From: a virus
Length of the DNA stretch: 64,000 nucleotides
Strand: one strand, 5' to 3'
Virus record (IMG/VR): IMGVR_UViG_3300037067_022550
The notes under the pieces were generated by a model. The model made no database searches, had not been told where the DNA came from, and saw only the letters and a list, made by a program, of their open reading frames with translations. Position 1 is the first letter of the stretch. Each line of letters starts with the position of its first letter. The translations under genes and the position numbers were made by a program. This document shows, piece by piece, positions 14,323 through 62,327 of this stretch.

Positions 14323-16014
14323 ATGATTACGCTAAAAGGTAAAATTCTGTTGACTGTAGTAGTGCTTGCAATTGCTGGATTTGGAACTTGGAAATGGAGC
14401 GACAAACTGTTTCCAAAAGCTAAACAAGAAGCAACTTCTAATATTAAAGATGTCGTAAATAAGTTGCTTGCTGGAACTAACGCTGTTTTTTTGAAGGAAT
14501 CTTCGTCTATTCCTCCTGTAGTCGGAACCAGCGATTACGACAAAACCAGCAAAAATGGTAAAATTGTAGTTAATTTTCCCATTAATGTCTGGCCTGGTTG
14601 GGCTCCAATTATTGTTGCCAATCAAGGAATGGATGCCAATGATAATAGCGTATTTTTTAAGAAATACGGATTTTATGTTCAACTAAGTATTGTTGATGAT
14701 CCTGTTAAAGCAAGAGATTTGTTTGCAAGCGGACATACACATGTTCTTTGGGGAACGCTAGATATGATGGCCTTGTTTGCCCCTGCTCTTGTTAGAGATT
14801 CAAGAACCATTCCAGTTATAGCTCAACAAATTGACTGGTCTTCTGGTGGAGACGGCATCGTAGCAAGAAATGGAATTAAAAACATAAATGATCTATCTAT
14901 GAAAAACGGCATTAAGAAAAAGGTGGTGCTTTCTCAAAATTCTCCTAGCCATGCCTTTATTATGTCATTGCTGTTGGATGCAGGTATTGATCCTTCACAG
15001 ATAGACTTTAAATGGACTGCAGACGCCCCTTCAGCCGCAAAAATATTTGTACAAGACAATACCATGGATGCATTTGTTGGATGGTCTCCGGACATATATA
15101 CGGTTTCAGAAGGAGTTCCTAATACAAAACTTATAGTTAGTACGGCTAGTGCTAATCATCTGTTGGCTGACGTTTGGGCTGTCAGAAACGACTTTTATAG
15201 AGACCACCCTGATGTGGTTGCCAACCTTGTTAGAGGAATATTTGAAGGCATGGAAATGGTAAGGAAAGATCCCACCAATGCAGCTAGTTTAATGTCAAAG
15301 GCATATAGTCTTCCGGAAGGAGATTGTTTGGCCATGATTGGAAAAGATGGTGGTATTACAAGCGGAGATGCACACCTTACTAATTATCGCGAAAACTTTA
15401 AATTCTTTCTTGAACCCAATAATCCTTCAAGTTTTGATGTTGTATGGAATAGATCTTCTGCTATTTATAGTGGGCTTGGAGCAATTGATACTATAGTAGT
15501 AGCATCTAAAGTTAAAGCTTCTAAGATTATATCTGAAATGTCAGAAGAATACAAAGATTCTACAGATTTGTCTCAAGCAACATTTAAGCCAAATGCTGTT
15601 TTCGGCAAAGCTGAATCAGACGCCAATCAGATTCTAACTAAAGCTGTTATTATTAATTTTGAACCTAACAAATCTGAAATTAATACTAACTATGATACTA
15701 ATATTCCTGTTACTATAGAAGAAATTGGCAAACTGGCAGGATCTTTTGGTAATGCCTACATAGTTATTGAAGGAAATACAGACGCAAGCAGAAAAGGTCT
15801 TATCCCAGCAGATTTGGTTAGACAACTTTCCTATGATAGAGCAGATTCAGTTAAAAAGTATATCATTAGTAAATATAAATTTGATAATGATAAATTCAAG
15901 GTTATAGGCAATGGATGGGAAAATCCTCTTGCAGGTATGACTGACCCAAGCAATACGGAAGCTAATAAGAAAAACCGTAGGGTTGAAGTAAAGGTTTTCT
16001 CTCTAGAACAATAA
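14323..16014 (+). CDS. ABC-type substrate-binding-like domain fused to C-terminal OmpA peptidoglycan-binding domain
   Basis: N-terminal TM/signal anchor. Periplasmic-binding-like body. C-terminal OmpA_C motif NTDASRKG...LSYDRADSVKKYI...NRRVEVKVF. Confidence 0.6.
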   Translation: MITLKGKILLTVVVLAIAGFGTWKWSDKLFPKAKQEATSNIKDVVNKLLAGTNAVFLKESSSIPPVVGTSDYDKTSKNGKIVVNFPINVWPGWAPIIVANQGMDANDNSVFFKKYGFYVQLSIVDDPVKARDLFASGHTHVLWGTLDMMALFAPALVRDSRTIPVIAQQIDWSSGGDGIVARNGIKNINDLSMKNGIKKKVVLSQNSPSHAFIMSLLLDAGIDPSQIDFKWTADAPSAAKIFVQDNTMDAFVGWSPDIYTVSEGVPNTKLIVSTASANHLLADVWAVRNDFYRDHPDVVANLVRGIFEGMEMVRKDPTNAASLMSKAYSLPEGDCLAMIGKDGGITSGDAHLTNYRENFKFFLEPNNPSSFDVVWNRSSAIYSGLGAIDTIVVASKVKASKIISEMSEEYKDSTDLSQATFKPNAVFGKAESDANQILTKAVIINFEPNKSEINTNYDTNIPVTIEEIGKLAGSFGNAYIVIEGNTDASRKGLIPADLVRQLSYDRADSVKKYIISKYKFDNDKFKVIGNGWENPLAGMTDPSNTEANKKNRRVEVKVFSLEQ

Positions 16015-16075
16015 CTAAGTTCAAATAAACAGGTTGGGTAGCCAATAATTAAAATGGCTACCCAACCTCTGCATA

Positions 16076-16945
16076 ATGGTAATATTCATGATTAACTTTG
16101 TTTTATTTTCAATATTTTTTTCTATAGCTGTTGTTATAGCTGCAACAATTATAAATCCAACAATAAGAAAGAAAATATCATATAAAAAATCAGTCTCTCT
16201 AACCGCGTCTTTTATTATTTTAACTTTGCTTGGATGGTGGTTAGTTACAGCAGGAAGCGTAATAGAAGAAAGAATTCTTTCGCCAATTATTCTTCCAAAT
16301 CCAGTTGAAGTTATTCAAGCATTTCCAGATCTTCACTTTAATCAGAACTTAGTGAGAAGTGCCTTTACATCATTTACAAGAGTTGGCATTGGGTTTTTAT
16401 TGGCAACTTTAGTAGCCATAACATTGGGAACATATATGGCTTCTTTTAGTTGCATATCAGATTTTTTTAAGCCACTGGCATTAGTTAGTGCATATGTCCC
16501 AATTATAGTTTTCGTTCCATTAACATTGGCATGGTGGGGAACTAGCGAAACACAAAAAATCGGCTTCCTGTTTATAGCTTGTTTTGTTGCCCTACTTCCT
16601 TTGGTAATTAAAGCGATAAATAATGTTAACTCATCTCTAGTAGATGTTGCATTAACAAAAGGAGCATCTAGTCGGCAAATATTAAGGCATGTTCTATTGC
16701 CAGTATCTATGCCAGAAATATGGGAACATCTAAGGGGAGTATACGGGGTTGGCTGGGGTTGGATTATATTGGCAGAAGTTGTTAATGCCCAAAACGGACT
16801 TGGCTATCTTATATCTGTTTCAGAAAGAAGGGGACATACCAATTCAACATTTGCAGTTATTATAGTAATTGTTTTAATAGCTATTCTTTGTGATAAAATA
16901 TGGGTTTGTATTGGTAAAAAACTTTTCCCTTATAAAAATAGATAA
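16076..16945 (+). CDS. ABC transporter permease (NitT/TauT-like)
   Basis: About 6 TM segments. EAA-like loop TKGASSRQILRHVLLP. Confidence 0.75.
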   Translation: MVIFMINFVLFSIFFSIAVVIAATIINPTIRKKISYKKSVSLTASFIILTLLGWWLVTAGSVIEERILSPIILPNPVEVIQAFPDLHFNQNLVRSAFTSFTRVGIGFLLATLVAITLGTYMASFSCISDFFKPLALVSAYVPIIVFVPLTLAWWGTSETQKIGFLFIACFVALLPLVIKAINNVNSSLVDVALTKGASSRQILRHVLLPVSMPEIWEHLRGVYGVGWGWIILAEVVNAQNGLGYLISVSERRGHTNSTFAVIIVIVLIAILCDKIWVCIGKKLFPYKNR

Positions 16946-16963
16946 TAAGAAATTTTAAAAAAT

Positions 16964-17929
16964 ATGAAAATTAAAAATATAGTTAATTGTTTCTGGACAA
17001 CACCTGATAAAAATGTTAATAAAGAAAATACCCCTGTAATTATAAAAGAGGAAACTTCTCCTGAAAAACAAATAGTAGAGATAAAACAAAAATTACTCTC
17101 TCCTATTCAAAATAGTAAAATAAATAATCTTTTGCCTAAACAAACAAAAACATCTGAACTGGTTGTTTTTGAAAATGTTACTAAAAAATTCGGCAATAAA
17201 GTTGCTATTCAAGACGTGTCTTTTATAGTCCATGATATTCCAAATAAAGGAGAATTAATTACAATAGTTGGACAATCAGGATGTGGTAAATCAACAGTTC
17301 TAAAAATACTGGCAGGACTGGAACCTCACTTCCCACCAACTTCAGGAAAGGTTATAGTTTTCGGAAAGAACTTGGAAAAACCATCAGCAGAAAGAGGACT
17401 TGTTGATCAAAAATATTCTCTTTTACCCAATCTAACAGTTATAGATAATATAGCCTTTGGACTTATGCTTAGAAATATTAATAAAAAAGATCGTAGAGAA
17501 CAAGCAATGGAATGGGTCAAAAAAGTAGATTTGGAAGGTTCAGAACAAAAATATCCTCACGAACTTTCTGGCGGTATGCAGCAAAGAGTCTCTATAGCAT
17601 CAACCCTTATACTTAAACCAAGAATATTGCTAATGGATGAACCTTTTGGAGCCCTAGATCCTAAAATTAGACTTCAAATGCAAGAACTTCTTATTAAATT
17701 GTGGGAAGAACAAGAAACAACTGTTTTTTTTGTCACCCATTCCGTAGAAGAAGCCGTCTACCTTGGAGATAGAATTTATAGAATGTCCCCAAATCCTGGC
17801 AGACTTGTTGAAATTATAGAAACTCCAAGACCAGATAAAATGGCATGGCAAGTTAGAAATGAAAAATGGTTCGTAGAAGCAACCAGAAACTTATTACATA
17901 AATTGGAAGAAAACACAAATGGAAATTAA
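16964..17929 (+). CDS. ABC transporter ATP-binding protein (with about 70-aa N-terminal extension)
   Basis: Walker A GQSGCGKST. Signature LSGGMQQRVSIA. Walker B LLMDEPFGALD. Confidence 0.85.
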   Translation: MKIKNIVNCFWTTPDKNVNKENTPVIIKEETSPEKQIVEIKQKLLSPIQNSKINNLLPKQTKTSELVVFENVTKKFGNKVAIQDVSFIVHDIPNKGELITIVGQSGCGKSTVLKILAGLEPHFPPTSGKVIVFGKNLEKPSAERGLVDQKYSLLPNLTVIDNIAFGLMLRNINKKDRREQAMEWVKKVDLEGSEQKYPHELSGGMQQRVSIASTLILKPRILLMDEPFGALDPKIRLQMQELLIKLWEEQETTVFFVTHSVEEAVYLGDRIYRMSPNPGRLVEIIETPRPDKMAWQVRNEKWFVEATRNLLHKLEENTNGN

Positions 17930-18875
17930 TTTTACTAGAGAATTTATAAAAAGCAAAACCAACATCGTCATGGCTCTGTCTACACTTGGTTTGGGATTTA
18001 TGTGCGGAGAATGGTACACTCTTGTACTAGGTATAATAATATACGGACTGTCAATTTTGTTTGTCCCAGAAATGCCATGGTTCAAAAATAAAATTATAAA
18101 TGAATATCAAGAAATAGAAAAACAAAATAATGAAAAAGAAAAACAGAAACTTATAGAAAAAAGAGACTCACAACTATCAACACTTCAACCCACAAGAAAA
18201 GAGAAATATTATTCTCTTGCAGAAACTTGTTTAAAAATAGAAGAAAACACAGAAAATAGTTCACAAGAATATGAATCTGTTTTTAGAAAACTAGAAGAAC
18301 TGTTGTCAACTTACCTTAAATTATTAATTATAGAACAATCACTTCAATTGTTTGTTGAATCAGAAAAAAAAGAAGATATAGAATCTTGCCTAAAAGATTC
18401 TCAAAAAGAACTATCTGATATAGAAAAAGAAAAATTAAATATACAAAAAGATCCACTGTCATCTAACATACAGTTGGAATCTAAACAAAAATTGCTTGAT
18501 TCAAAACAAGACAAAATAGCTATACTTAATCAAAGAAAAAATAAACTGGAACAAGCAAAAACTAATATAGAAATCGTCTTGTCAGAACTAGATAGACTAG
18601 AACAACAAATTAAATTAATTAGATCTGATTCTATAGCAACAAGAAATACAGATGCTTTAACTAATAAAATTGATGTTAGTATAGAACAAATTAATCAAAC
18701 AAATAAATGGTTGGTGGAAATGCAAGATTTTAAAGATGTGGTAGGCGATGATTGTCAAACCCAATCAAAAAGAATAGGATTTTTAAAATCGCCTTTAGAT
18801 AATACCACATTCAATAACTTAAAAAATAATAAGATTAAAAGGGATAAAATAATATATGAATACAAATCTGCCTAA
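17919..18875 (+). CDS. membrane-anchored coiled-coil protein
   Basis: N-terminal TM helices then long K/E-rich coiled coil. Overlaps the upstream stop. Confidence 0.5.
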   Translation: MEINFTREFIKSKTNIVMALSTLGLGFMCGEWYTLVLGIIIYGLSILFVPEMPWFKNKIINEYQEIEKQNNEKEKQKLIEKRDSQLSTLQPTRKEKYYSLAETCLKIEENTENSSQEYESVFRKLEELLSTYLKLLIIEQSLQLFVESEKKEDIESCLKDSQKELSDIEKEKLNIQKDPLSSNIQLESKQKLLDSKQDKIAILNQRKNKLEQAKTNIEIVLSELDRLEQQIKLIRSDSIATRNTDALTNKIDVSIEQINQTNKWLVEMQDFKDVVGDDCQTQSKRIGFLKSPLDNTTFNNLKNNKIKRDKIIYEYKSA

Positions 18876-40633: not shown

Positions 40634-41356
40634 ATGTCTCATATGAATAATCAAGAAGCTACTAAAGTTTGTTCTAAATGTCAAAAAGAAAAACCTTTGA
40701 ATGAGTTTTACAAAGATGTGGATAATAAAGATGGTCATAGGAGTGATTGTAAAATTTGTCGTAAAAAAATTGTAAAACAATATAGTTTAAATAATTATGA
40801 AAAAATTAAACAAAAAAACAAAATTTATAATTACAATCACAAAAAAGAAAGGCAATTATATGATAAGCAATATAATTCTAAAAATAAAAAAGAAATTGAT
40901 TTATATAATAAACAATATTACATAATAAACAAAAGCAAACTTATTCTTAAAAATAAAGAATATAGATTAAAAAATAAAGACAAATTACGTATTGGCAGAA
41001 GAACTTATAAAAACAACAAACTTAAAACAAATATAAATTTTAAAATACTAGAAAGTTATCGCAGTAGAATTTATCACGCATTAAAAAACAATCAAAAATT
41101 AGGACATACCATAAAACTTATTATGTGTTCAATACCAGAATTAAAACTACATATAGAAAAGCTGTGGTTGCCAGGCATGAGTTGGAATAACTGGGGCTAT
41201 GGTAAAAATAAATGGCATATTGACCACATAATCCCTTGTTCTTTCTTTAATATGTCAGATCCAGTAGAACAGTATATGTGCTTTAGATGGCAAAACCTTC
41301 AACCACTATGGCAAACTGTTAATTTTAAGAAAGGAGATAAATTACAAAATTTGTAA
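40634..41356 (+). CDS. HNH homing endonuclease with N-terminal zinc finger, encoded opposite to the surrounding genes
   Basis: CSKCQK...CKICRK zinc finger. HNH core KWHIDHIIPCS...N...N. Confidence 0.7.
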   Translation: MSHMNNQEATKVCSKCQKEKPLNEFYKDVDNKDGHRSDCKICRKKIVKQYSLNNYEKIKQKNKIYNYNHKKERQLYDKQYNSKNKKEIDLYNKQYYIINKSKLILKNKEYRLKNKDKLRIGRRTYKNNKLKTNINFKILESYRSRIYHALKNNQKLGHTIKLIMCSIPELKLHIEKLWLPGMSWNNWGYGKNKWHIDHIIPCSFFNMSDPVEQYMCFRWQNLQPLWQTVNFKKGDKLQNL

Positions 41357-42142: not shown

Positions 42143-42463
42143 TTAGGCTTTTTCAACATAATAGCTAAAGGGATTTAAAAGGATAATTTCACGAATGCCG
42201 TATTCCAATATAGGACAAAAATTGTCTGATAATATTTCATTTGCTTTTTCTTGAGCAAATTTCAAGGCATCTGTGCTATTGGTAAAAACATTACATTTAC
42301 CAAAATAATTGACGACTTCTTTTGGATTACCATTAGGGTTATAATTATCAGGAGCATTTTTATCCCAGTATATGTTATCTATAGCCTGAGCATGAGCAAC
42401 CCTAAACTCAAATCCATCTTGAGAAGGAGTCTTTAAAATTGCTATACAATTATCTGCCGACAT
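42143..42463 (-). CDS. hypothetical protein
   Basis: 106-aa ORF. Confidence 0.5.
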   Translation of the reverse strand: MSADNCIAILKTPSQDGFEFRVAHAQAIDNIYWDKNAPDNYNPNGNPKEVVNYFGKCNVFTNSTDALKFAQEKANEILSDNFCPILEYGIREIILLNPFSYYVEKA

Positions 42464-43247
42464 AGTTAACCCCTTCCATTAAATGTCGTTTGCCGTTAAT
42501 TATATTAGATATGGCACTCCCATCCATTTTAAATTTTTTTCCTAATTGTTTATGAGTATATTGACCACTTTTGTACATTTTTATTATTTCTTTGGCTTGT
42601 TCGTCTGAAATTTTAGATCCAGGCCCTTTTTCGCCCCACATATATCGTCCGTTTTTTCTTTCATTTTCATAGATGTTGTTCCACCATTTATAAAAATCTT
42701 CATCATTTAAATTATTTACTTTTTGGTATTCTTGACTAGCTTTTTCTGGAGTATCATAGTAACCCACATGATAAGATTTATTGTATCTGGAAATACTGGC
42801 TTTCCATTTCTGTTTTCTTTTGTAAAAGCATACCCCTTTATATCCAGATTTGTTTGTGCAAATTATTAAATTATTATTTCTATGAGCTTGTTTAATTTTT
42901 TCTTTTGTTTCTGTTGGTAATGAACTTCTATCTACTTTATCTAATATATTATAACTCTTGTTTTTAATTCCTACTCCAACAGCATCTATCATTTTTTGTT
43001 CAGTTGTTTTAGATTCTATAGTATTACAAATGCAAATTATTTCAACTTTAAAAGCATTTTCTCCATATTTGTTCCAATCGTTTTGCAATATCCAAGAATG
43101 ATGTTTTTTATTTTTTAAATTACAAATATGAGTTTGAAGCCTTTTAAATATCCCTTGTTCCCCAGCACTACCATAATAAACAAACCCATTAATTTTATTG
43201 ATTATTCTATAAACACCAGGTTTTTTTGGCAAAGATGAAATATCCAT
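42450..43247 (-). CDS. GIY-YIG homing endonuclease
   Basis: GVYRIINKINGFVYYGSA plus R...H...N catalytic spacing. C-terminal basic DNA-binding tail. Confidence 0.8.
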   Translation of the reverse strand: MDISSLPKKPGVYRIINKINGFVYYGSAGEQGIFKRLQTHICNLKNKKHHSWILQNDWNKYGENAFKVEIICICNTIESKTTEQKMIDAVGVGIKNKSYNILDKVDRSSLPTETKEKIKQAHRNNNLIICTNKSGYKGVCFYKRKQKWKASISRYNKSYHVGYYDTPEKASQEYQKVNNLNDEDFYKWWNNIYENERKNGRYMWGEKGPGSKISDEQAKEIIKMYKSGQYTHKQLGKKFKMDGSAISNIINGKRHLMEGVNYVGR

Positions 43248-48274: not shown

Positions 48275-48823
48275 TTAATCTTCATCTATCAATGCTTCTT
48301 TTAATTTTTGAAGTTTCTCTCCAGTTACATGGGTAGATGCTATTTCTTCTACTCTTTTTGTTTCTTGTTTTTCTGGTTGTTCTACTTCTTGTTCTACTTC
48401 TTGTTCAACAGAATTTTCTTTCCCCCCGCATTCTTTTAAAGTAAGTTTTTTAAAATTTTCATCCCATTCTCTAAAAAACCATTGCCCGTTTTCAAACAAA
48501 TAAGTGTAATCATTATCACAAATTTTAAGGGCTTCTTCTTTGTTGTCAAATTTCCTATATGTTGTCTGTTCCCAAGATGTCCCCCTATCACGATGGTAGG
48601 CATTAACTTCATCTTTAGGGGGATTATTAAAGTCGTGTTTTTTGCCAATTTCAATTCCAAGAGAAGAAATATCTCCCAATTCAATTAATTTAAAAATTTT
48701 TTCTGGATCGGTATAATGTTCCAAAAGAATTTTGCCATTGTTTTCTGGGTAGCCATCCCAATGAGAATAAATCACATAATAATTTCCATTTTTTTCTAAT
48801 ATGATGTTGCTATGGGTTGACAT
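48275..48823 (-). CDS. hypothetical protein with shared C-terminal module
   Basis: C-terminal 27 aa nearly identical to 41589..42128. Confidence 0.5.
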   Translation of the reverse strand: MSTHSNIILEKNGNYYVIYSHWDGYPENNGKILLEHYTDPEKIFKLIELGDISSLGIEIGKKHDFNNPPKDEVNAYHRDRGTSWEQTTYRKFDNKEEALKICDNDYTYLFENGQWFFREWDENFKKLTLKECGGKENSVEQEVEQEVEQPEKQETKRVEEIASTHVTGEKLQKLKEALIDED

Positions 48824-48848
48824 TTTTATACTCTCTATTTATGAATTG

Positions 48849-48886
48849 ATTTGAATTAATATAACAGATTTAATTTAAAAGTCAAG
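48849..48886 (-). promoter_or_regulatory. early-promoter family copy
   Basis: aagtcaag at 48879-48886. Confidence 0.5.
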
Positions 48887-49280
48887 TTATTTTCCATAGC
48901 TATTATATTTTTATTACCATATTCTAAAACTGAACTCAAATTGTTTTAAAGACCAATAGCCGATAGTAAATGTAAATCCAAAAATACGAAACCATATCAT
49001 CCATGGAGATTTGCCAAAATTAAACAACCATTTTCTTACGCCCAAATATAATAGCAGTCCTTCTTTTTTATAGAGGCGAGCTTTTAAAGGAATAGAAAAT
49101 GTTATTGAAATATCCATTATTTTGCATCTCTTTCCATTTCATCTAAAACCTTTTTATCTTCTTCTGTAATATACCAAAGAGCTATTTCTTTACTATTGTG
49201 AAAAGCTATAGTATGAGGCTTGCCCAAGACGGATTCTATAAAAGCATAGCGTTCAGAATTTTTGGCAATATTAATATTAA

Positions 49281-49546
49281 TCATAAATCACCACAAAAAT
49301 ATTTTTGTCTTTTTATATGTTCTTCAATATATTTTTTAGATGTTCTTGGTTTGGGACAAATTTCTATTGGGCGTGTATCACAAGTTACTAGTATTCTGTT
49401 TCTTCCATAAGATCCACTAACAAGTTCTATCTTTTCTGTCTTATACCCAAGATTGCAACTACCTTTCTGACATGACTGCATTCCATCTTCATAAGCATAA
49501 CAACCCAAACAAGATTTAATGCGAATTTTCACTGAATCTTTTAAAT
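49281..49546 (-). CDS. zinc-finger protein. The start is uncertain because the called N-terminus is a translated tRNA.
   Basis: ORF track 49281..49595 begins inside tRNA-Lys (VAGSSPAR, a typical T-arm translation). The true start is probably downstream of 49547. Confidence 0.3.
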
Positions 49547-49622
49547 TGGTGATCCGGGCGGGACTCGAACCCGCCACCACTTGATTAAAAGTCAAGTGCT
49601 CTACCAGATGAGCTACCGGATC
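49547..49622 (-). tRNA. tRNA-Lys (anticodon UUU), CCA encoded
   Basis: Cloverleaf read by eye. Acceptor GATCCGG/CCGGATC. D arm GCTC-ATCTGGTA-GAGC. Anticodon arm CTTGA-CTTTTAA-TCAAG. T arm GCGGG-TTCGAGT-CCCGC. Discriminator A plus CCA. Confidence 0.85.
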
Positions 49623-49638
49623 TTTCTATTGTAAAACA

Positions 49639-49887
49639 TTATGATTCCAACGCTTTTCTTATGTATTCCCCCAATTCTTTAAAACGGGGATCTTTTTCAA
49701 GTGCAAAAACTATTTTATAAACATTTTCTGTTTTGCGGTATAATTTGTGAATTAAATTAATAGCTTCTTGATTATGCGGTTCTGAAATTTCTGCTTTGGC
49801 TATTGCTAAAACAATATCACTTCTGGTCATTTTGTCTCCTCTTTTTTTAAGACGTGGTGTACAAGCTGCATGGTTTCTGATTGGCAA
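49639..49887 (-). CDS. hypothetical protein
   Basis: 82-aa ORF. Confidence 0.45.
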   Translation of the reverse strand: MPIRNHAACTPRLKKRGDKMTRSDIVLAIAKAEISEPHNQEAINLIHKLYRKTENVYKIVFALEKDPRFKELGEYIRKALES

Positions 49888-50387
49888 ATGCCGTTGTTAT
49901 TAGCCACAGCTTTCAGGGCTTCTTGCATTTCTTTAATCCTATGTCTTGCTCGCAAAAGATGATCTCCATACGATTCTTCATCAGGGTGGAGATTATCTTC
50001 ATACCAACTCCATATGACAATCCCATTTCTGATAATTAAATGGTTCATTTGTAAATGCGTTGTTTCTTTTTCTATATCTGAATTAACAATAACCGTATAA
50101 GACTGTTCTTTAGGACGAAAATCAAGTTCCCTAACCTGGTACAGTTTATTTTTTGTAAGATATTTGCCGCCACTAAGAAAATAATGATCTTCATCTGAAT
50201 CCACAAAATCACCAACTTGAACTATGTTACGCCACTGCTCTTCAATGGCCAATACTATTGCTAACGTTTCATTTGCAATTTCTTCTAATGTTTTCATATT
50301 ACCTGTTCCAAACTGAACGCTTATCAAAGGGGTTGTTTTTAAGAGCTTCAAGAAATTTATTTTTATCAAGGCCATTTGAAATATCAC
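49827..50387 (-). CDS. hypothetical protein
   Basis: 186-aa ORF. Confidence 0.5.
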   Translation of the reverse strand: MIFQMALIKINFLKLLKTTPLISVQFGTGNMKTLEEIANETLAIVLAIEEQWRNIVQVGDFVDSDEDHYFLSGGKYLTKNKLYQVRELDFRPKEQSYTVIVNSDIEKETTHLQMNHLIIRNGIVIWSWYEDNLHPDEESYGDHLLRARHRIKEMQEALKAVANNNGICQSETMQLVHHVLKKEETK

Positions 50388-50793
50388 GCTGCCTAACTAA
50401 AAGACGTAAATATTCAATTTCATCTTCTGTAAGCGTAATAACATCATACCAATCAAATAATTTTAAAAGAGACTGGAAACCATTTAAATTGTCTCTATGC
50501 GTAAAGATAAATTCTTGAATAGCATCACGCCAGCAAGAATCGTGATAGCATAAATGTTTCATGGGCTTGACATGGCGTTCTCCCTTTTCATCAATACGTT
50601 CTTCTTGAACAGCAACATGGACATAATTGCGAGGAGAAAAAATATACATATGACATATTAGATACTGGTCACAACATTTTTCTGGAGTCATATGAAATCC
50701 AATGTGCATGGCTTTGCCAGAATTTATTTGGTCTTTACCAACAACCTTCTCAAATTCACTTTGAATTATTGTACAAAGCATTGATTCAATCAT
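50299..50793 (-). CDS. hypothetical protein
   Basis: 164-aa ORF. Confidence 0.5.
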   Translation of the reverse strand: MIESMLCTIIQSEFEKVVGKDQINSGKAMHIGFHMTPEKCCDQYLICHMYIFSPRNYVHVAVQEERIDEKGERHVKPMKHLCYHDSCWRDAIQEFIFTHRDNLNGFQSLLKLFDWYDVITLTEDEIEYLRLLVRQRDISNGLDKNKFLEALKNNPFDKRSVWNR

Positions 50794-50846
50794 TTTGTCT
50801 CCTTTTTAAGTAGTATTTTGAAACTACTTTTTTCAAAGCTTTTGTT

Positions 50847-50884
50847 AAAGAAGTCTAATGTAACATATTAATTTTAAAAGTCAA
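50847..50884 (-). promoter_or_regulatory. early-promoter family copy
   Basis: aagtcaag at 50877-50884. Confidence 0.5.
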
Positions 50885-51165
50885 GATAGTTTTTCAAGAA
50901 TATTTTCAGCATTAGTGATTAAAGCTATGCGTTCATTCAAATCAATGATAAAAGAATCTTGAGGATGACATTGAATCCAATCATTACCAAGAGATTCTTG
51001 ATCCCCCAAAATTCCATTTTTAATAATGGGGATAATCCTTGAAAGTCCGTCTCTTCTTGCTTTGTCTTCTATAATGGTTCCATTAGGCATTTTACCAGCC
51101 ACTAAACATTGGCAACATTCTAAAGTAGTCATTTGTCCAAAGGGGACATCTCTTGGTGTTTGCAT
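50881..51165 (-). CDS. hypothetical protein (start corrected to the internal Met downstream of the promoter)
   Basis: Promoter TTGACT-16-TAGCAT at 51190-51225 lies inside the longest-ORF call 50881..51261. Likely start MQTPRDVPFGQ... Confidence 0.45.
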   Translation of the reverse strand: MQTPRDVPFGQMTTLECCQCLVAGKMPNGTIIEDKARRDGLSRIIPIIKNGILGDQESLGNDWIQCHPQDSFIIDLNERIALITNAENILEKLS

Positions 51166-51189
51166 TGTTATATTCTTGCCCTTTCTTTT

Positions 51190-51225
51190 AACACTAATGC
51201 TATCATAATTAAAGTAAAAGTCAAT
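51190..51225 (-). promoter_or_regulatory. early-promoter family copy (variant)
   Basis: aagtcaat at 51218-51225. TAGCAT is 16 nt downstream on the gene strand. Confidence 0.45.
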
Positions 51226-51640
51226 ATAATATTGTATAATAAATAACAAAGGAGAAAACATGAAAATAAAACTACCTAAGGAAATACAAGATCAGTTATC
51301 TAATCTTCCTGAAAGCGGAATGGGCTATCAAAAGGCCAATCTGGTACTTGCTAACGGTAAAATTATTAAAAATGCCATTATCAACTCTGAAAGATCCTGA
51401 ACAACAGCTCCTTCACGATCATGATTTCATTGTTTTTTGATAAGACAGTGTGGTCCACAGTGTGCCCTGGTGTGTAAAACAGCTCTTCAACAGCTCTTCA
51501 TTTTTTAATTCGGCACTGAACCCATTAAATATATAGAAAATAACAAGACGAGTGCATTTTCTTATAAAAAAGATATCATGAGGATCCAGAAGACAGTGTG
51601 TGGTCCATAAGTTTTTTGTGGGGCACATGATTTCAATGTA

Positions 51641-51691
51641 CTCTTTTAGGTCCATTAGATAGTTTAATGCTATTTAATGGACCTAAAAGAG
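51641..51691. repeat. 17-bp perfect inverted repeat with 17-bp spacer
   Basis: ctcttttaggtccatta (51641-51657) and taatggacctaaaagag (51675-51691). Confidence 0.8.
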
Positions 51692-51769
51692 TCTCTTTAA
51701 ATAAAAAATTACGTTTTATTTTTTTTATGTATAATGAAAAGAAAGATATAAACCAAGGGAGAAAAAACT

Positions 51770-52321
51770 ATGGGAAGAAAAAAATCAGTAGAACCAAAAG
51801 AAGAGAAGTCTTTTAGCGTGGTGGAAGAAGGCGAAGAAATTGTCAAAAAGTTATGTGAAAAATACCCCGAAGTTCTTTGGGCAGTAGAACCACAAAGCGT
51901 TGGAGTTTATGGGTGCGATAATCAAGAAACTCCTGCAAGTTGTAATACATTGGCTAAAATCAGAAAAGTAAATGGCGTATTAAAAGCAGTTCTAGAAAAA
52001 AATAATATCCCCTTAAAGTATATTATAGAACTCTATTGGAGCGATTGGAGAGAATGGAGTATGCCTACAAAACAATGGATCTTGTTCCATGAATTGTGCC
52101 ATATTCTTGATCCTGATTCTAAAGGATTAAGAAAACACAATATAGAAGATTTTAGCCTAACATTAGATATTGTAGGTATTGAAGGTTATAGAAGATCTGA
52201 TCTACCTAATCTGTTAGGAGATAAACCCGTTGAATTTGATAAGAAAATAGTTGCTGCAATGATGAAACCAGCAGAAGGAACTACAGAAGCTACAGAAAGC
52301 GGGGAAACTCCTCCGGAATAA
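51770..52321 (+). CDS. HExxH zinc-metallopeptidase-like protein
   Basis: FHELCHI (HExxH). RBS AAGGGAGAAAAAAC before the ATG. On the plus strand inside the minus-strand block. Confidence 0.5.
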   Translation: MGRKKSVEPKEEKSFSVVEEGEEIVKKLCEKYPEVLWAVEPQSVGVYGCDNQETPASCNTLAKIRKVNGVLKAVLEKNNIPLKYIIELYWSDWREWSMPTKQWILFHELCHILDPDSKGLRKHNIEDFSLTLDIVGIEGYRRSDLPNLLGDKPVEFDKKIVAAMMKPAEGTTEATESGETPPE

Positions 52322-52486
52322 TATGATTGTAAGAATTAATTTACAACATGCATATTTTCAAGAATTATAAGTGAACCCATTATTACAATTAAAGCACCAT
52401 ATGTATTCATAATTATTTAATAACTATTAATTTTGGTGCTCGGGGAGGGAGTCGAACCCTCACGCCCGTTAAGAGCAACAGATTTT

Positions 52487-53175
52487 CTTCACTACATTAC
52501 TTTCGTATTGTAGTCCGGACTTTCTCTTTACCATGCCTTTTTGGTTTAGGTATCCCCCGTTAAGTCTCTGCACCTTAAAAAATTCCACGCTTATTCTTTT
52601 TTTTCATGGCTTGGAAACAAACTTCTCTCTTTTCTTTGTCTTTGCTGTATTTGCAAAACTCCAAAAAAATCAATGCTTGCTCCCTTTTGACTTTTAAAAA
52701 AGGTAATATCTTTTCTATTAACTTCTGAGAATTACTCATAGACAACCTTATAGCATATGCCGTTTTTCGATTGCCTTTTGGTTTTTTCTCAAAAATTTTC
52801 GAAGTATTTTTAGTTATTATATTTAGCCACTCCATTATCGGTTTATAGGTGTTCCCAATATCTAAATAAGCAGAATATCCTATGTAAGAATTATAATTCT
52901 TAACTTGGTGCTTTCGCTTATTGATATGAATAGAACCTTCACCATCAATAAAACCGGCTATATATGCCAACTCTGTATCTGTTACTTTATTCACTTTAGT
53001 CTCCTTCCTAATAGAGACTATTTCATAGAGAAAATAACAGAAACCTTTTTTAATTTTCAAAGAACAATTGCAGAACTTTCCCTTGGCTCAGGATTAGCAT
53101 ACCTTTCGGTTTAGCTTTCCCTGAATTTGAGGGATTACATTATATAGGTTTCCCTACATACGCTCAATTTCTTTT
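52487..53175 (-). other. group I intron (tRNA-Leu(UAA) intron family, IC3-like) with a homing-endonuclease ORF in a peripheral loop
   Basis: Matches the Anabaena/plastid tRNA-Leu intron as recalled from memory. 5' part AAUUGAGC...CUCAAAUUCAGGGAAA...AAUCCUGAGCCAAG. 3' part AAGGUGCAGAGACU.AACGGGGGAUACCUAAAC...GGUAAAGAGAAAGUCC...GAAA-tetraloop hairpin...UGAAG(omegaG). Confidence 0.75.
52575..53060 (-). CDS. LAGLIDADG homing endonuclease (single-motif, about 160 aa) encoded within the tRNA-Leu intron
   Basis: TELAYIAGFIDGEGSIHI motif. No in-frame ATG at the 5' end (TTG at 53058-53060). Frame open from 53087. Confidence 0.8.
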   Translation of the reverse strand: MKIKKGFCYFLYEIVSIRKETKVNKVTDTELAYIAGFIDGEGSIHINKRKHQVKNYNSYIGYSAYLDIGNTYKPIMEWLNIITKNTSKIFEKKPKGNRKTAYAIRLSMSNSQKLIEKILPFLKVKREQALIFLEFCKYSKDKEKREVCFQAMKKKNKRGIF

Positions 53176-53226
53176 AAGTCTGTTGTGTCTGCCATTCCAC
53201 CACCCGAGCATTACATTTATTTTTAT

Positions 53227-58466: not shown

Positions 58467-58504
58467 TTTCAGTAAAAAATAACATAAATCAAATTAAAGT
58501 CAAG
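58467..58504 (-). promoter_or_regulatory. early-promoter family copy
   Basis: aagtcaag at 58497-58504. Confidence 0.5.
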
Positions 58505-58968
58505 CAATTTTTTAATGAACAGCAGCAATATTTAGCAAACAATTGTATGACATATTTTAATGCCATATTTTTTTGTAGGGCATTAATAAGCAGATATTTT
58601 CTAAATTGGAATTCAGACATTGTTTTCTTTTCTGAATTACACTTATCACAAGCTACCCTGAAGTTTTTGGGATCATTTCTTTTTTTGGTTATGCTTTTTG
58701 GAATGGCATGATCAATTGTAGCTTGAAGATGTTTTTTCTTGGTTTTTATTTTTAATCCAGTCTTACCGCAATAATCACAAATAAGAGTCCCACTTTTTGT
58801 AAGATGACTTTTAAGATATTTCTTCCTGGCTTTTATCCAAGCAGTTAAACATTCATCTGTTTGAAGATACAATTGTTTATTCAGCATCAACAAACTGGCA
58901 TAGGAGTGCGGATCGGGATCTTCCACAAAGAAAAGATTAGCAGTTCTTTCTCTGATATTTGTTTTCAT
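58489..58968 (-). CDS. HNH endonuclease
   Basis: CDYCGKTG...IDHAIP...N...CDKCNSEKK (HNH with zinc-binding Cys pairs). Confidence 0.7.
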   Translation of the reverse strand: MKTNIRERTANLFFVEDPDPHSYASLLMLNKQLYLQTDECLTAWIKARKKYLKSHLTKSGTLICDYCGKTGLKIKTKKKHLQATIDHAIPKSITKKRNDPKNFRVACDKCNSEKKTMSEFQFRKYLLINALQKNMALKYVIQLFAKYCCCSLKNCLTLI

Positions 58969-62249: not shown

Positions 62250-62327
62250 TGGTGGGAGATGAGGGATTTGAACCCCCGACCTTGGATTTATAAGACCCCT
62301 GCTCGTCACCAGCTGAGCTAATCTCCC
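62250..62327 (-). tRNA. tRNA with anticodon UAU (Ile-like, reads AUA), CCA encoded
   Basis: Acceptor GGGAGAU/AUCUCCC. D arm GCUC...GAGC. Anticodon loop CUUAUAA. Variable loop AGGUC. T arm GGGGG-UUCAAAU-CCCUC. A-CCA. One G.A mismatch at 27:43. Confidence 0.6.

What the first reader, a model, noticed from the sequence alone, without database searches (positions are those of the whole stretch)
52434..53209. tRNA-Leu(UAA) gene split at U34/A35 by a cyanobacterial/plastid-type group I intron carrying a LAGLIDADG homing endonuclease, inside a phage-like early region
Exon structure, read directly from the sequence:
- The 3' tRNA half (T arm, acceptor 3' strand and CCA at 52434-52486) has its 5' half 690 nt away at 53176-53209.
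- Joined, the two halves form a perfect type-II tRNA-Leu with anticodon loop CUU|AAAA.
- The break is at exactly the U34/A35 position occupied by the ancient tRNA-Leu(UAA) intron.
- The 5' exon ends in U and the intron ends in G.

Intron identity, from memory of the Anabaena tRNA-Leu ribozyme:
- The intron carries the hallmark strings of that ribozyme family.
- These are AAUUGAGC, UUCAGGGAAA, AAUCCUGAGCCAAG, AAGGUGCAGAGACU, ACGGG.G.UACCUAA and GGUAAAGAGAGAGUCC.

Endonuclease ORF:
- A LAGLIDADG ORF (LAYIAGFIDGEGS) sits between the P3'/P7 and P7' segments, which is a P8-type insertion.

Why it is unusual:
- This intron family is classically ORF-less and restricted to cyanobacteria and plastids.
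- An ORF-containing copy in a phage-like genome would be a mobile derivative of a famous ribozyme.
- It may also hint at the host lineage.
Basis: partly seen in the sequence, partly recalled or inferred. Interest (0 to 1): 0.9.

Follow-up and report, generated by a model that had tools for sequence, protein, structure and literature searches.

The report
Phage tRNA-Leu intron carrying homing endonuclease
A leucine tRNA gene in a phage-like genome is split by a self-splicing group I intron of the cyanobacterial and chloroplast kind, and this copy carries its own DNA-cutting "homing" enzyme, which makes it a plausible mobile form of that intron.

Summary
On the minus strand, 53209-53176 and 52486-52434 join into a perfect type-II tRNA-Leu(UAA). 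A 689-nt insert (53175-52487) splits it exactly between U34 and A35.

The insert is a genuine group I intron:
- It has a U.G pair at the 5' splice site and a terminal G.
- All core helices P1-P9 are intact, with GAAA tetraloops and receptor-like motifs.
- Rfam Intron_gpI matches the 5' half (E 4e-7). My own covariance model matches the 3' half (E 2e-6).
- With the ORF removed, it aligns along its full length with bacterial tRNA-Leu introns. 87.5% of cells are paired and 38 pairs show compensatory change.

The 139-aa ORF is an intact single-motif LAGLIDADG enzyme of the I-CreI/I-MsoI type.

- The ORF sits in the P6 loop, not P8.
- This intron family is neither confined to cyanobacteria and plastids nor always ORF-less.
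- It gives no hint of the host.

The endonuclease's closest relatives sit in the same P6 position in introns of tRNA-Leu (33/34), tRNA-Met and tRNA-Asn. Phage origin is likely but not proven.

Verdict: a new variant of a known kind, of moderate interest.

The parts
53176..53209 (-). tRNA-Leu(UAA) 5' exon, 34 nt: acceptor 5' strand, D arm, anticodon stem 5' strand, C32 U33 U34. It ends in U.
   Evidence: ARAGORN with intron search; sequence read.
52487..53175 (-). Group I intron, 689 nt, of the IC3 tRNA-Leu type, inserted between U34 and A35.
   Evidence: Rfam RF00028 partial hit 53185-52993 at 35.2 bits, E 4e-7. Own model R1 hit 52562-52459 at 35.4 bits, E 2e-6. Full-length alignment with 10 bacterial tRNA-Leu introns and pair counts. 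Minimum-energy fold, z = -4.0.
52434..52486 (-). tRNA-Leu(UAA) 3' exon, 53 nt: A35 A36, anticodon stem 3' strand, long variable arm, T arm, acceptor 3' strand, encoded CCA.
53163..53178 (-). P1: CUU|AA pairs with UUGAG across a 6-nt loop. The U34.G wobble marks the 5' splice site between 53176 and 53175.
   Evidence: 100% of cells paired across 11 sequences. Reproduced by the minimum-energy fold and by the Rfam alignment.
53141..53160 (-). P2: an 8-bp helix UAUGUAGG/CCUAUAUA capped by a GAAA tetraloop.
   Evidence: 7 of 8 pairs show compensatory change in the alignment.
53129..53134 (-). P3 5' strand, UCCCUC. It pairs with 52558-52553.
   Evidence: 93.9% paired, with 5 of 6 pairs changed on both sides. 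Also in the minimum-energy fold.
53088..53124 (-). P4-P5-P5a-P4' domain: UCAGGG ... GC-UAAA-CC GAAA GG-UAU-GC ... UCCUGA. P5 has an internal loop resembling an 11-nt tetraloop receptor.
   Evidence: P4 and P5 are 100% paired. The receptor resemblance rests on my own knowledge of the CCUAAG...UAUGG motif.
53070..53086 (-). P6 (CC) and P6a (GGAAAGUUCUGC) 5' strands. The ORF-bearing loop begins after 53070.
   Evidence: P6 is 100% paired in all 11 sequences.
52997..53020 (-). Hairpin UAGUCUCU-loop-GGAGACUA. It buries the Shine-Dalgarno GGAGA (53004-53000) just upstream of the GUG start.
   Evidence: RNA fold of 53075-52960. A regulatory role is inferred.
52575..52994 (-). Homing endonuclease ORF, 139 aa, GTG start, single LAGLIDADG motif (LAYIAGFIDGEGS). 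It lies entirely within the P6 loop.
   Evidence: Pfam PF00961 at 30.8 bits, above the 23.1 cutoff. PDB sequence hits to I-MsoI, I-CvuI and I-CreI. AlphaFold2 model pLDDT 92.2 with Foldseek TM 0.65-0.75 to I-MsoI/I-CreI. Homologues start at the same place.
52573..52588 (-). P6a 3' strand (GUGGAAUUUUUU) and P6 3' strand (GG). The stop codon UAA (52577-52575) bridges them.
52562..52566 (-). P7 5' strand, GACUU, within the invariant GGUGCAGAGACU. It pairs with 52522-52518.
   Evidence: 100% paired. The fifth pair covaries: U-A here, C-G in the cyanobacterial-type sequences, A-U in Bacteroidales and Myxococcota.
52553..52558 (-). P3 3' strand, GGGGGA.
52529..52552 (-). P8: UACC-UAAA-CC AAAAA GG-CAU-GGUA, with a receptor-like internal loop.
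   Evidence: The outer helix is 95.5% paired.
52518..52522 (-). P7 3' strand, AAGUC, preceded by J8/7 AAGAGA (52528-52523).
52491..52514 (-). P9: a 10-bp helix with one A.A mismatch, capped by a GAAA tetraloop.
52487..52487 (-). Terminal G (omega-G) at the 3' splice site.
   Evidence: It aligns with the terminal G of all reference introns.

Best explanation
This is a functional, mobile group I intron in a tRNA-Leu(UAA) gene of a large phage-like genome.

Splicing (inferred steps unless marked shown):
- The gene is transcribed as a 776-nt precursor.
- The intron folds into the compact IC3-type core that the sequence shows (P1-P9).
- The exons are held together by the 5-bp anticodon stem ACAGA/UCUGU, which replaces P10.
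- Exogenous guanosine attacks after U34, at the U.G pair of P1.
- The freed 3'-OH of U34 attacks after the terminal G (52487).
- This produces a mature tRNA that reads UUA, the commonest Leu codon of this AT-rich genome.

The endonuclease (inferred steps unless marked shown):
- The P6 loop carries a 139-aa single-motif LAGLIDADG endonuclease (shown). Enzymes of this type act as homodimers.
- Its ribosome-binding site is buried in a hairpin (shown), so translation is probably restricted until after the RNA has folded or spliced.
- The dimer is expected to cut intron-less tRNA-Leu(UAA) genes of co-infecting phages near the U34/A35 site. That DNA is a 21-bp near-palindrome, CAACAGACTT|AAAATCTGTTG.
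- Repair from the intron-bearing copy would then spread intron and ORF together (homing).

Shown: exon and intron boundaries, core structure, homology of both parts, intactness of the ORF.
Inferred: catalysis, timing of translation, cleavage site, homing.
For: tRNA and boundaries:
- ARAGORN calls the split gene and the spliced tRNA.

Ribozyme:
- Rfam Intron_gpI matches the 5' half (E 4e-7 locally; E 2.8e-5 over the whole window, where it is the only group I hit).
- Model R1 was built from P3'-to-terminal-G of 10 bacterial tRNA-Leu introns, leaving out the seed motif and the exons. It gives one significant hit in the window, starting exactly at P3' (35.4 bits, E 2e-6).
- The ORF-deleted precursor is 57-70% identical over its full length to the 10 bacterial tRNA-Leu introns aligned: 63-70% to the 8 cyanobacterial-type introns, 65.5% to Bacteroidales, 56.6% to Myxococcota.
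- My hand-drawn structure gives 87.5% paired cells, against 32-52% when the partners are slid. 38 pairs change on both sides, and 0 of 500 shuffles reach this.
- The minimum-energy fold reproduces P1-P6, P9 and the tRNA arms (z = -4.0).

Endonuclease:
- Pfam hit above cutoff.
- The DGEG acidic residue and the PFLKVKREQA lysine are conserved.
- AlphaFold2 pLDDT is 92, with I-MsoI and I-CreI as best structural matches.

Targets exist:
- At least 120 IMG/VR contigs carry intron-less tRNA-Leu(UAA) genes with the identical anticodon stem-loop. One (L346) also matches 15 further bases 5' of it.

The tRNA is useful:
- UUA is 31% of Leu codons. The two other tRNAs in the window read AAA and AUA, which are also favoured codons.

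This endonuclease lineage lives in tRNA introns:
- Relatives at 46-54% identity sit in the same P6 position in introns of tRNA-Leu(UAA) 33/34, tRNA-Met(CAU) 33/34 and tRNA-Asn(GUU) 35/36.
Against: - No RNA data, so splicing is not shown.
- The Rfam score (35.2 bits) is below the family's gathering score (50). The 479-nt P6 insertion stops the model from spanning the intron.
- P6a is made largely of A-U and G.U pairs and is specific to this lineage.
- I found no intron-less or ORF-less copy of this same locus in a close relative, so no presence/absence polymorphism supports recent homing.
- The endonuclease's target has not been determined. LAGLIDADG proteins can instead, or also, act as splicing maturases.
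- Promoter-like matches are no more frequent than in shuffled sequence, and no terminator-like site was found.
Confidence: 0.8

Rival explanations
1. The locus is bacterial, not viral. The window would come from a low-GC bacterial genome or another mobile element, and this would be an ordinary bacterial tRNA-Leu(UAA) intron that has picked up an endonuclease gene.
For: - The first 24 kb encode bacterial-looking functions: a sensor histidine kinase, a three-gene ABC transporter, an SLT transglycosylase and NrdD/NrdG.
- No capsid, portal or terminase gene lies in the window.
- The source contig is not in IMG/VR: two protein scans found no copy of it.
- tRNA-Leu 34/35 introns are common in bacteria (PMC13011429).
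Against: - 24-64 kb is a run of small genes, mostly on the same strand and mostly without any family match.
- That run includes a phage metallopeptidase (PF18894), PHROG-only families and three free-standing HNH or endonuclease VII-type nuclease genes.
- Three tRNAs lie scattered among these small genes, all reading A-ending codons.
- The same protein is found on a 264-kb contig, which fits a jumbo phage. Jumbo phages often carry such auxiliary genes.
- The closest ribozyme cores are on IMG/VR viral contigs.
Confidence: 0.15
2. The intron no longer splices and the tRNA gene is a pseudogene disrupted by a selfish insertion. Alternatively, the ORF is a decayed endonuclease kept only as a maturase.
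For: - No expression data.
- The Rfam score is below the gathering threshold.
- P6a is weak (A-U and G.U pairs), and P9 has an A.A mismatch.
- LAGLIDADG proteins are known to evolve into maturases (established knowledge).
Against: - Every core helix is intact and the invariant core nucleotides are all present.
- The exons form a perfect tRNA with CCA.
- The ORF is full-length relative to its homologues, keeps the catalytic acidic residue and lysine, and folds confidently.
- A second contig from the same sample is 99.95% identical over 4.2 kb, with the ORF intact as far as that contig reaches.
Confidence: 0.07
3. The endonuclease gene moves on its own rather than with the intron. It would have invaded the P6 loop of a pre-existing ORF-less phage tRNA-Leu intron, and its real target may be the ORF-less intron or another sequence rather than the intron-less tRNA gene.
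For: - Homologous endonucleases (42-54% identity) occupy the same P6 position in unrelated ribozyme cores. The example at 54% (L121) shares DNA similarity with the window only within the ORF.
- The closest ribozyme core (L370, 81%) carries a different endonuclease (HNH) in a different loop (L1).
Against: - This concerns origin and is compatible with present-day co-mobility of intron and ORF.
- In characterised cases, intron-borne LAGLIDADG enzymes cut the intron-less allele near the insertion site (established knowledge).
- No ORF-less copy of this exact intron was found.
Confidence: 0.3

Closest known systems
[quoted passage not shown]
   Same: - Same host gene and same insertion site (U34/A35).
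- Same helix order P1-P9, with the anticodon stem holding the exons together.
- Same invariant core strings.
- 63-70% identity over the whole ORF-deleted precursor, with compensatory changes in P2, P3, P7 and P8.
- Its length-variable element, the P6 loop, is where this copy has been expanded.
   Different: - Those introns are ORF-less (217-312 nt in my sample). This one is 689 nt, with a 420-nt endonuclease ORF in P6.
- P5, P8 and P9 are shorter here.
- The genome is phage-like and 32% GC, not cyanobacterial.
- The exons are of a non-cyanobacterial tRNA-Leu type.
HNH-bearing tRNA-Leu(UAA) introns of Bacteroidota (PMC13011429; here L238 and L176, plus the IMG/VR contig L370)
   Same: - Same gene and same site, and also carries an endonuclease.
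- L370's ribozyme core is the closest found (81%).
   Different: - A different endonuclease family (HNH rather than LAGLIDADG).
- A different location for the ORF: the L1 loop near the 5' end rather than P6.
Other endonuclease-bearing bacterial tRNA introns: tRNA-fMet(CAU) 33/34 with the PD-(D/E)XK enzyme I-SspI-type, and tRNA-Arg(CCU) 36/37 with LAGLIDADG PF03161 (PMC13011429; PMC3984707)
   Same: A group I intron in an anticodon loop that carries a homing endonuclease. This arrangement is rare: 12 of 333 tRNA introns in the 2026 survey.
   Different: - A different tRNA and a different insertion site.
- The tRNA-Arg enzyme belongs to a different LAGLIDADG Pfam family (PF03161, against PF00961/PF14528 here).
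I-CreI, I-MsoI and I-CvuI (homodimeric single-motif LAGLIDADG enzymes of algal chloroplast 23S rRNA introns)
   Same: - Same fold and size.
- Same motif, with a terminal acidic residue.
- Same conserved lysine-containing helix.
   Different: - Only 18-23% identity.
- The host is a tRNA intron rather than an rRNA intron.
- The target is unknown.
Phage group I introns (T4 td, nrdB and nrdD; SPO1, Twort, crAss-like and Jug phages) and the Lak megaphage tRNA introns
   Same: - A self-splicing intron with an endonuclease gene in a peripheral loop of a phage genome.
- The buried ribosome-binding site resembles what I recall of the T4 td intron and I-TevI.
- Lak phages were reported to have tRNA introns (10.1101/356790).
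   Different: - The classical phage introns are all in protein-coding genes (PMC3984707).
- The Lak tRNA introns were left unclassified ("enigmatic"), occur in Phe, Gly, Thr and Tyr tRNAs, and were not reported to carry endonucleases.

Membership tests
Group I intron, tRNA-Leu(UAA) IC3 lineage | Inserted in the anticodon loop of tRNA-Leu(UAA) between U34 and A35. | tested here: met
   ARAGORN with intron search reports intron position 34-35, and the spliced product is tRNA-Leu(taa).
Group I intron, tRNA-Leu(UAA) IC3 lineage | The 5' exon ends in a U that forms a U.G wobble in P1, and the intron ends in G. | tested here: met
   The U at 53176 pairs with the G at 53165. The terminal G is at 52487. 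The P1 splice-site pair is U.G in 10 of 11 sequences.
Group I intron, tRNA-Leu(UAA) IC3 lineage | Conserved catalytic core: P3-P8, including the P3/P7 pseudoknot and J8/7. | tested here: met
   P3 is 93.9% paired; P4, P5, P6 and P7 are 100%; P8 is 95.5%. There is covariation, and slid controls give 32-52%. R1 hit at E 2e-6. Rfam hit at E 4e-7.
Group I intron, tRNA-Leu(UAA) IC3 lineage | Reaches the Rfam RF00028 gathering score of 50 bits. | tested here: not met
   The score is 35.2 bits. The hit covers only the 5' half, because the 479-nt P6 insertion exceeds what the model can span. I could not submit the ORF-deleted sequence to Rfam with these tools.
Group I intron, tRNA-Leu(UAA) IC3 lineage | Self-splicing with guanosine and Mg2+. 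| not testable with these tools
   Needs an in-vitro splicing assay or RNA-seq.
   Core identity is 67-75% to cyanobacteria, 71-73% to Bacteroidales, and 81% and 78% to two IMG/VR tRNA introns. The sample was chosen by motif and no tree was built.
LAGLIDADG homing endonuclease, single-motif homodimeric type (I-CreI-like) | Pfam LAGLIDADG_1 or LAGLIDADG_3 above the curated cutoff. | tested here: met
   PF00961 at 30.8 bits (cutoff 23.1) and PF14528 at 23.9 bits (cutoff 22.5).
LAGLIDADG homing endonuclease, single-motif homodimeric type (I-CreI-like) | One LAGLIDADG helix ending in a catalytic acidic residue, plus the conserved active-site lysine region. | tested here: met
   LAYIAGFIDGEGS, with D17, G18, E19 and G20 invariant. 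K103 and A107 are invariant within ILPFLKVKREQA.
LAGLIDADG homing endonuclease, single-motif homodimeric type (I-CreI-like) | A single-domain alpha-beta-beta-alpha-beta-beta-alpha fold. | tested here: met
   AlphaFold2 pLDDT 92.2 with elements H-E-E-H-E-E-H-H-H. Foldseek top hits are I-MsoI, I-CreI and I-CvuI, at E 1e-8 to 1e-6 and TM 0.65-0.75.
LAGLIDADG homing endonuclease, single-motif homodimeric type (I-CreI-like) | Dimerises and cleaves the intron-less allele, leaving 4-nt 3' overhangs. | not testable with these tools
   Inferred only from the single-domain size. Candidate target: GACACAACAGACTT|AAAATCTGTTGCTC.
Bacteriophage genome | Virion or packaging hallmark genes, or membership of a viral contig catalogue. 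| tested here: inconclusive
   The window has no hallmark gene, and the contig is not in IMG/VR. However, it has phage metallopeptidase PF18894, PHROG-only families, three free-standing nuclease genes, a run of small genes without matches, and scattered tRNAs.

The most novel reading that the evidence does not exclude
The ORF belongs to a lineage of small homodimeric LAGLIDADG enzymes that specialise in the DNA of tRNA anticodon stem-loops, which is inherently palindromic and so suits a symmetric dimer.

This lineage would have moved repeatedly between the P6 loops of different group I ribozymes sitting at 33/34, 34/35 and 35/36 in Leu, Met and Asn tRNA genes.

Carried on large phages, such elements would be the missing vector and engine for the lateral spread of the "ancient" tRNA-Leu intron between bacterial phyla. 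They could also cut the host's or a rival phage's intron-less tRNA-Leu gene during infection.
Probability: 0.15. Interest if true: 0.75.

Novelty: new variant of a known kind. Interest (0 to 1): 0.55.

Why it matters
The tRNA-Leu(UAA) intron is the textbook "ancient" bacterial intron. Whether its patchy distribution reflects vertical descent or lateral transfer has long been argued, and the known copies lack any mobility gene.

- **A possible mobile form.** This copy has an intact homing endonuclease and sits in what looks like a jumbo phage. That would offer both a mechanism and a vehicle for lateral transfer.
- **Phage tRNA introns.** A 2014 review stated that every phage intron known at that time lay in a protein-coding gene. 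This case and the others I found in IMG/VR show that phage tRNA genes also host group I introns.
- **A testable model of endonuclease capture.** The same endonuclease lineage occurs in the P6 loop of four different tRNA introns. This can be used to test how endonuclease genes colonise ribozymes.
- **An annotation gap.** Default tRNA and Rfam scans missed the gene entirely, so tRNA sets of large phages are probably under-counted.

Tried and rejected
- **Default detection tools.** Default ARAGORN and Rfam at gathering threshold found neither the tRNA nor the intron. Intron-aware ARAGORN, E-value-mode Rfam and a custom model were needed.
- **The quoted strings as family markers.** Rejected as specific to the tRNA-Leu family. 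Most IMG/VR hits to AATCCTGAGCCAAG are introns in protein genes, and the P7 string occurs in introns of Asn, Gln, Arg, Ser and Thr tRNAs in many phyla.
- **ORF in P8.** Rejected.
- **Longer TTG start at 53060 (161 aa).** Rejected in favour of GTG at 52994. The homologues begin there, and a Shine-Dalgarno GGAGA precedes it.
- **Stop-codon recoding as the reason for short ORFs in 24-64 kb.** Recoding TAG or TGA raises the longest ORF only modestly, from 271 to 287 or 344 aa.
- **A second intron in the split nrdD (gap 9180-9408).** No Rfam match even at E<=1, and the gap reads on as NrdD in another frame. This is a frameshift, not an intron.
- **Close relatives of this locus.**
  - Megablast of 40000-64000 against the phage collection gave no match.
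  - Blastn of the locus itself gave only two 46-nt matches.
  - IMG/VR scans with the endonuclease and with the neighbouring metallopeptidase gave nothing closer than 28% identity.
  - So I could not test for presence/absence polymorphism.
- **Exact-protein look-up of P0001.** Nothing was on record.
- **Promoter and terminator scan.** Uninformative: 7 promoter-like sites against 4.9 +/- 2.4 in shuffles, and no terminator.
- **Literature.** I found no report of a LAGLIDADG gene in a tRNA-Leu(UAA) intron, and none of a classified group I intron in a phage tRNA. The held library omits much subscription literature, so this absence is weak evidence.
Full report

Yes, at exactly the stated coordinates. 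Read on the minus strand, 53209-53176 is GCUCGGGUGGUGGAAUGGCAGACACAACAGACUU, and 52486-52434 is AAAAUCUGUUGCUCUUAACGGGCGUGAGGGUUCGACUCCCUCCCCGAGCACCA.

- ARAGORN run with intron search calls one gene, tRNA-Leu(taa), at c[52434,53209] with a 689-nt intron at position 34/35.
- On the artificially spliced sequence it draws a perfect 87-nt type-II tRNA-Leu(UAA) with a long variable arm and an encoded CCA.
- Default ARAGORN and Rfam at gathering thresholds miss the gene altogether. They report only tRNA-Lys(UUU) at 49547-49622 and tRNA-Ile(UAU) at 62250-62327.

**2. Is the insert a group I intron?**

Four independent lines of evidence say yes.

(a) Rfam in E-value mode matches Intron_gpI to 53185-52993. 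The score is 35.2 bits, E 4e-7 for the region and 2.8e-5 for the whole window, where it is the only group I hit. This is below the family's gathering score of 50. The alignment is correct only through P1-P6. The model then tries to fit its 3' half to the start of the ORF region, because a 479-nt insertion is beyond its reach.

(b) To test the 3' half without circularity, I proceeded as follows.
- I fetched bacterial tRNA introns that share the P7 string and identified ten tRNA-Leu(UAA) introns among them with ARAGORN.
- From these I cut out only the segment from P3' to the terminal G, leaving out the seed string and the exons.
- I built covariance model R1 from that segment.
- In both strands of the window, R1 has one significant hit: 52562-52459, 35.4 bits, E 2e-6. 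It begins at the first base after GAGACU.

(c) I closed P6a with a GAAA loop to make an ORF-deleted precursor of 301 nt.
- It aligns end to end with those ten introns. Identity is 63-70% to the eight cyanobacterial-type sequences, 65.5% to Bacteroidales and 56.6% to Myxococcota.
- A structure I drew from the window sequence alone was then counted on that alignment.
- 87.5% of cells are standard pairs, against 32-52% when the partners are slid by 1-3 columns.
- 38 of 69 pairs change on both sides, and none of 500 shuffles reaches the observed values.
- P1, P4, P5, P6 and P7 are paired in 100% of cells, P3 in 93.9%, P8 in 95.5% and P2 in 89.8%.
- The fifth pair of P7 is U-A here, C-G in the eight cyanobacterial-type sequences and A-U in Bacteroidales and Myxococcota.
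- A caveat the tool itself states applies here. A structure derived from one member tends to beat slid versions on cells paired, so the compensatory counts carry more weight.

(d) The minimum-energy fold of the 301-nt RNA independently returns the acceptor and D stems, P1, P2, P3, P4, P5/P5a, P6/P6a, P9, the variable arm and the T arm. Its energy is -94.6 kcal/mol, z = -4.0, and 0 of 100 shuffles fold as well.

**3. Anatomy**

All coordinates were checked.

| Element | Sequence | Window coordinates |
|---|---|---|
| P1 | CUU\|AA with UUGAG; U34.G at the splice site | 53178-53174 with 53167-53163 |
| P2 | UAUGUAGG-GAAA-CCUAUAUA | 53160-53141 |
| P3 | UCCCUC with GGGGGA | 53134-53129 with 52558-52553 |
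| P4 | UCAGGG with UCCUGA | 53124-53119 with 53093-53088 |
| P5/P5a | GC-UAAA-CC GAAA GG-UAU-GC | 53115-53097 |
| P6 | CC with GG | 53086-53085 with 52574-52573 |
| P6a | GGAAAGUUCUGC with GUGGAAUUUUUU | 53081-53070 with 52588-52577 |
| P7 | GACUU with AAGUC | 52566-52562 with 52522-52518 |
| P8 | UACC-UAAA-CC...GG-CAU-GGUA | 52552-52529 |
| P9 | 10 bp with a GAAA loop | 52514-52491 |
| Terminal G | G | 52487 |

- The GAAA loops on P2, P5a and P9, and the CUAAA/UAUG-type internal loops in P5 and P8, look like the tetraloop-receptor contacts of compact IC3 introns such as Azoarcus. That comparison rests on my own knowledge, not on a test here.
- I see no convincing P10. As in the Anabaena precursor, the 5-bp anticodon stem ACAGA/UCUGU next to P1 presumably aligns the exons. 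See the title of Zaug et al. 1993, cited in PMC3984707.

**4. The ORF and where it sits**

- The ORF runs from GTG at 52994 to TAA at 52577-52575 and encodes 139 aa. The homologues start at the equivalent residue.
- It lies wholly inside the loop closed by P6a. Its last codons and its stop codon form the 3' strand of P6a and abut P6.
- Pfam LAGLIDADG_1 scores 30.8 bits against a cutoff of 23.1.
- The closest solved proteins by sequence are I-MsoI, I-CvuI and I-CreI.
- An AlphaFold2 model (pLDDT 92.2) has the single-domain alpha-beta-beta-alpha-beta-beta-alpha fold. It superposes on I-MsoI and I-CreI with TM 0.65-0.75.
- The motif LAYIAGFIDGEGS keeps its terminal acidic residue, and the PFLKVKREQA helix keeps its lysine.
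- The enzyme therefore looks intact. Being a single domain, it should act as a homodimer.
- The Shine-Dalgarno GGAGA (53004-53000) is paired in an 8-bp hairpin (53020-52997), and the first codons pair with upstream sequence. This suggests that translation is held back, as I recall for I-TevI in the T4 td intron. That is inference.

**5. Likely target**

- The intron-less junction CAACAGACTT|AAAATCTGTTG is a 21-bp near-palindrome centred on A35, with one mismatched pair (read directly from the sequence). This is about the size of site a LAGLIDADG homodimer recognises.
- Part of that symmetry is simply the anticodon stem, so I did not test it for significance.
- Intron-less tRNA-Leu(UAA) genes with the identical 17-nt stem-loop occur in at least 120 IMG/VR contigs. 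One (L346) also matches 15 further bases 5' of it.
- Natural homing targets therefore exist.

**6. Relatives of the endonuclease**

A search of 5.8 billion protein clusters gave only 12 hits. A metagenome scan with the alignment found at least 295 relatives, but only five reach 42% identity or more. The closest ones are instructive.

| Locus | Identity | Context |
|---|---|---|
| L121 | 54% | 801-nt intron at 33/34 of a tRNA-Leu(UAA) gene, with a different ribozyme core; DNA similarity to the window is confined to the ORF |
| L437 | 47% | 1067-nt intron at 33/34 of tRNA-Met(CAU) |
| L438 | 46% | 654-nt intron at 35/36 of tRNA-Asn(GUU), with the same ACAGA/UCUGU stem |
[quoted passage not shown] - In all five, the ORF ends immediately before the 5' strand of P7, that is, in P6.
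- R1 detects the 3' intron half just downstream of the ORF in L121 (E 1e-4) and L438 (E 0.007), and marginally in L437 (E 0.1).
- Conversely, the ribozyme core closest to the window's (L370, an IMG/VR contig, 81%) is a tRNA-Leu(UAA) intron carrying an HNH gene in the L1 loop, like the Bacteroidales introns L238 and L176.
- Ribozymes and endonuclease genes have therefore been combined independently.

**7. Context**

- 24-64 kb is a run of small genes, mostly on the minus strand and mostly without family matches.
- That run includes a phage metallopeptidase (PF18894), PHROG families of unknown function, an endonuclease VII-like gene, and two HNH or homing-endonuclease genes.
- The three tRNAs read UUA, AAA and AUA. 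These make up 31% of Leu, 82% of Lys and 44% of Ile codons respectively. This fits codon supplementation by an AT-rich phage.
- The same endonuclease is recorded on a 264-kb contig. A 4.5-kb contig from JGI sample 3300014205 is 99.95% identical across 48770-53018.
- Against a viral origin, 1-24 kb carries a histidine kinase, an ABC transporter, SLT and NrdD/NrdG. No virion gene lies in the window, and the contig is absent from IMG/VR.
- I rate phage origin at about 85%.

**8. Comparison with what is known**

- The 2014 review of bacterial group I introns states that all phage introns known then were in protein-coding genes, despite the many phage tRNA genes (PMC3984707).
- The Lak megaphage preprint reported "enigmatic" introns in Phe, Gly, Thr and Tyr tRNAs as a first for phages, without classifying them (10.1101/356790).
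- A 2026 survey of 4,934 complete bacterial genomes found 333 tRNA group I introns in 18 phyla.
  - tRNA-Leu 34/35 was a common site.
  - Only 12 introns carried endonuclease genes: HNH in tRNA-Leu(UAA) of Bacteroidota and in tRNA-Asn, PD-(D/E)XK in tRNA-fMet and tRNA-Arg(UCU), and LAGLIDADG PF03161 in tRNA-Arg(CCU) (PMC13011429).
- I found no report of a LAGLIDADG gene in a tRNA-Leu(UAA) intron.
- My own scans show that IMG/VR already holds phage-contig tRNA introns, which lowers the novelty of "phage tRNA intron" as such:
  - Leu(UAA): L370, L373 and L415.
  - Ser(UGA): L407.
  - Gln: L038 and L087.
  - Thr: L059.

**9. Verdict**

The finding is real and well described, apart from the ORF's location, the outdated statement on distribution and the host inference.

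It is a new variant of a known kind: the tRNA-Leu(UAA) IC3 intron, carrying a single-motif LAGLIDADG endonuclease in P6, on a probable jumbo phage.

It matters mainly as a plausible mobile, phage-borne form of an intron whose lateral transfer has long been debated. It also shows that phage tRNA sets are under-annotated. Splicing, cleavage specificity and homing remain inferred.

Noticed in passing
window 8178-10929 (minus strand): The anaerobic ribonucleotide reductase gene nrdD is split into two ORFs (9409-10929 and 8178-9179). The 229-nt gap reads on as NrdD in another frame, so this is a frameshift near 9410-9420, either a sequencing error or programmed. It is not an intron: Rfam finds nothing there even at E<=1. 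The NrdG-like radical-SAM activase lies at 7036-7731.
   Followed up: partly
window 40634-41356 (+), 42450-43247 (-), 58489-58968 (-): Three further free-standing nuclease genes lie in the small-gene region: one endonuclease VII-like with a zinc finger, one homing endonuclease with an HNH domain, and one HNH. The genome appears heavily colonised by selfish nucleases.
   Followed up: partly
window 49547-49622, 52434-53209, 62250-62327 (all minus strand): The three tRNAs in the window (Lys-UUU, Leu-UAA, Ile-UAU) all read A-ending codons, which this genome favours: AAA is 82% of Lys codons, UUA 31% of Leu and AUA 44% of Ile. This fits codon supplementation against a less AT-rich host.
   Followed up: partly
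window 1-24000: A block of cell-like genes: sensor histidine kinase (5126-6520), SLT transglycosylase (4372-5106), an ABC transporter made of a substrate-binding/OmpA fusion, a permease and an ATPase (14323-17929; the adjacent ORF 17919-18875 was not searched), a VWA protein and an AAA/SMC-like ATPase. These are either auxiliary genes of a huge phage or a sign that the contig is not viral.
   Followed up: partly
L121:3769-4654 (ENA contig k141_1582699): A tRNA-Leu(UAA) gene carries an 801-nt group I intron one nucleotide upstream (33/34) of the classical site. Its ribozyme core differs from the window's and resembles that of L437. Its LAGLIDADG gene is 54% identical to the window's and also sits in P6.
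   Followed up: partly
L437:751-1893 and L438:255-984 (metagenome contigs): A tRNA-Met(CAU) gene has a 1067-nt intron at 33/34, and a tRNA-Asn(GUU) gene has a 654-nt intron at 35/36. Each carries a homologue of the same endonuclease (47% and 46% identity) in P6. L438 lies in a tRNA array.
   Followed up: partly
L370:501-1359; L373:1235-1538; L415:3115-3418; L407:6045-6801 (IMG/VR contigs): [quoted passage not shown] They include tRNA-Leu(UAA) with an HNH gene in L1 (L370), ORF-less tRNA-Leu(UAA) introns on 117-kb and 150-kb contigs (L415, L373), and tRNA-Ser(UGA) with an HNH gene on a 207-kb contig (L407). L038 and L087 (Gln) and L059 (Thr) are further cases. As far as I could find, phage tRNA introns have not been described as a class.
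   Followed up: partly
L238:6876-7686 and L176:6610-7427 (Bacteroidales MAGs): tRNA-Leu(UAA) introns of 725-730 nt carry an HNH ORF inserted in the P1 loop. ARAGORN mislabels L176 as tRNA-Ser(aga). L224 is the ORF-less counterpart.
   Followed up: partly
window 53082-53127; hit H2 in Escherichia phage VTCCBPA_211 (PP989838.1:23664-23709): The P4-P5-P4' segment matches an unannotated 46-nt stretch of an E. coli phage genome at 89% identity. This is presumably an unannotated group I intron there.
   Followed up: no
window 52475-52552 (minus strand): There is a weak Rfam match to LOOT RNA (25.1 bits, E 0.02) over P8-P9. It is driven by the UACCUAAACC...GGCAUGGUA and GAAA-hairpin elements. I take it to be shared tetraloop and receptor-like motifs rather than homology.
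   Followed up: no
window 53031-53060 (minus strand): A promoter-like TTGAAA-18-TATTTT site, with a TG before the -10 element, lies inside the intron about 35 nt upstream of the endonuclease's ribosome-binding site. It could give the ORF its own transcript, but such sites are not enriched over shuffled sequence.
   Followed up: no
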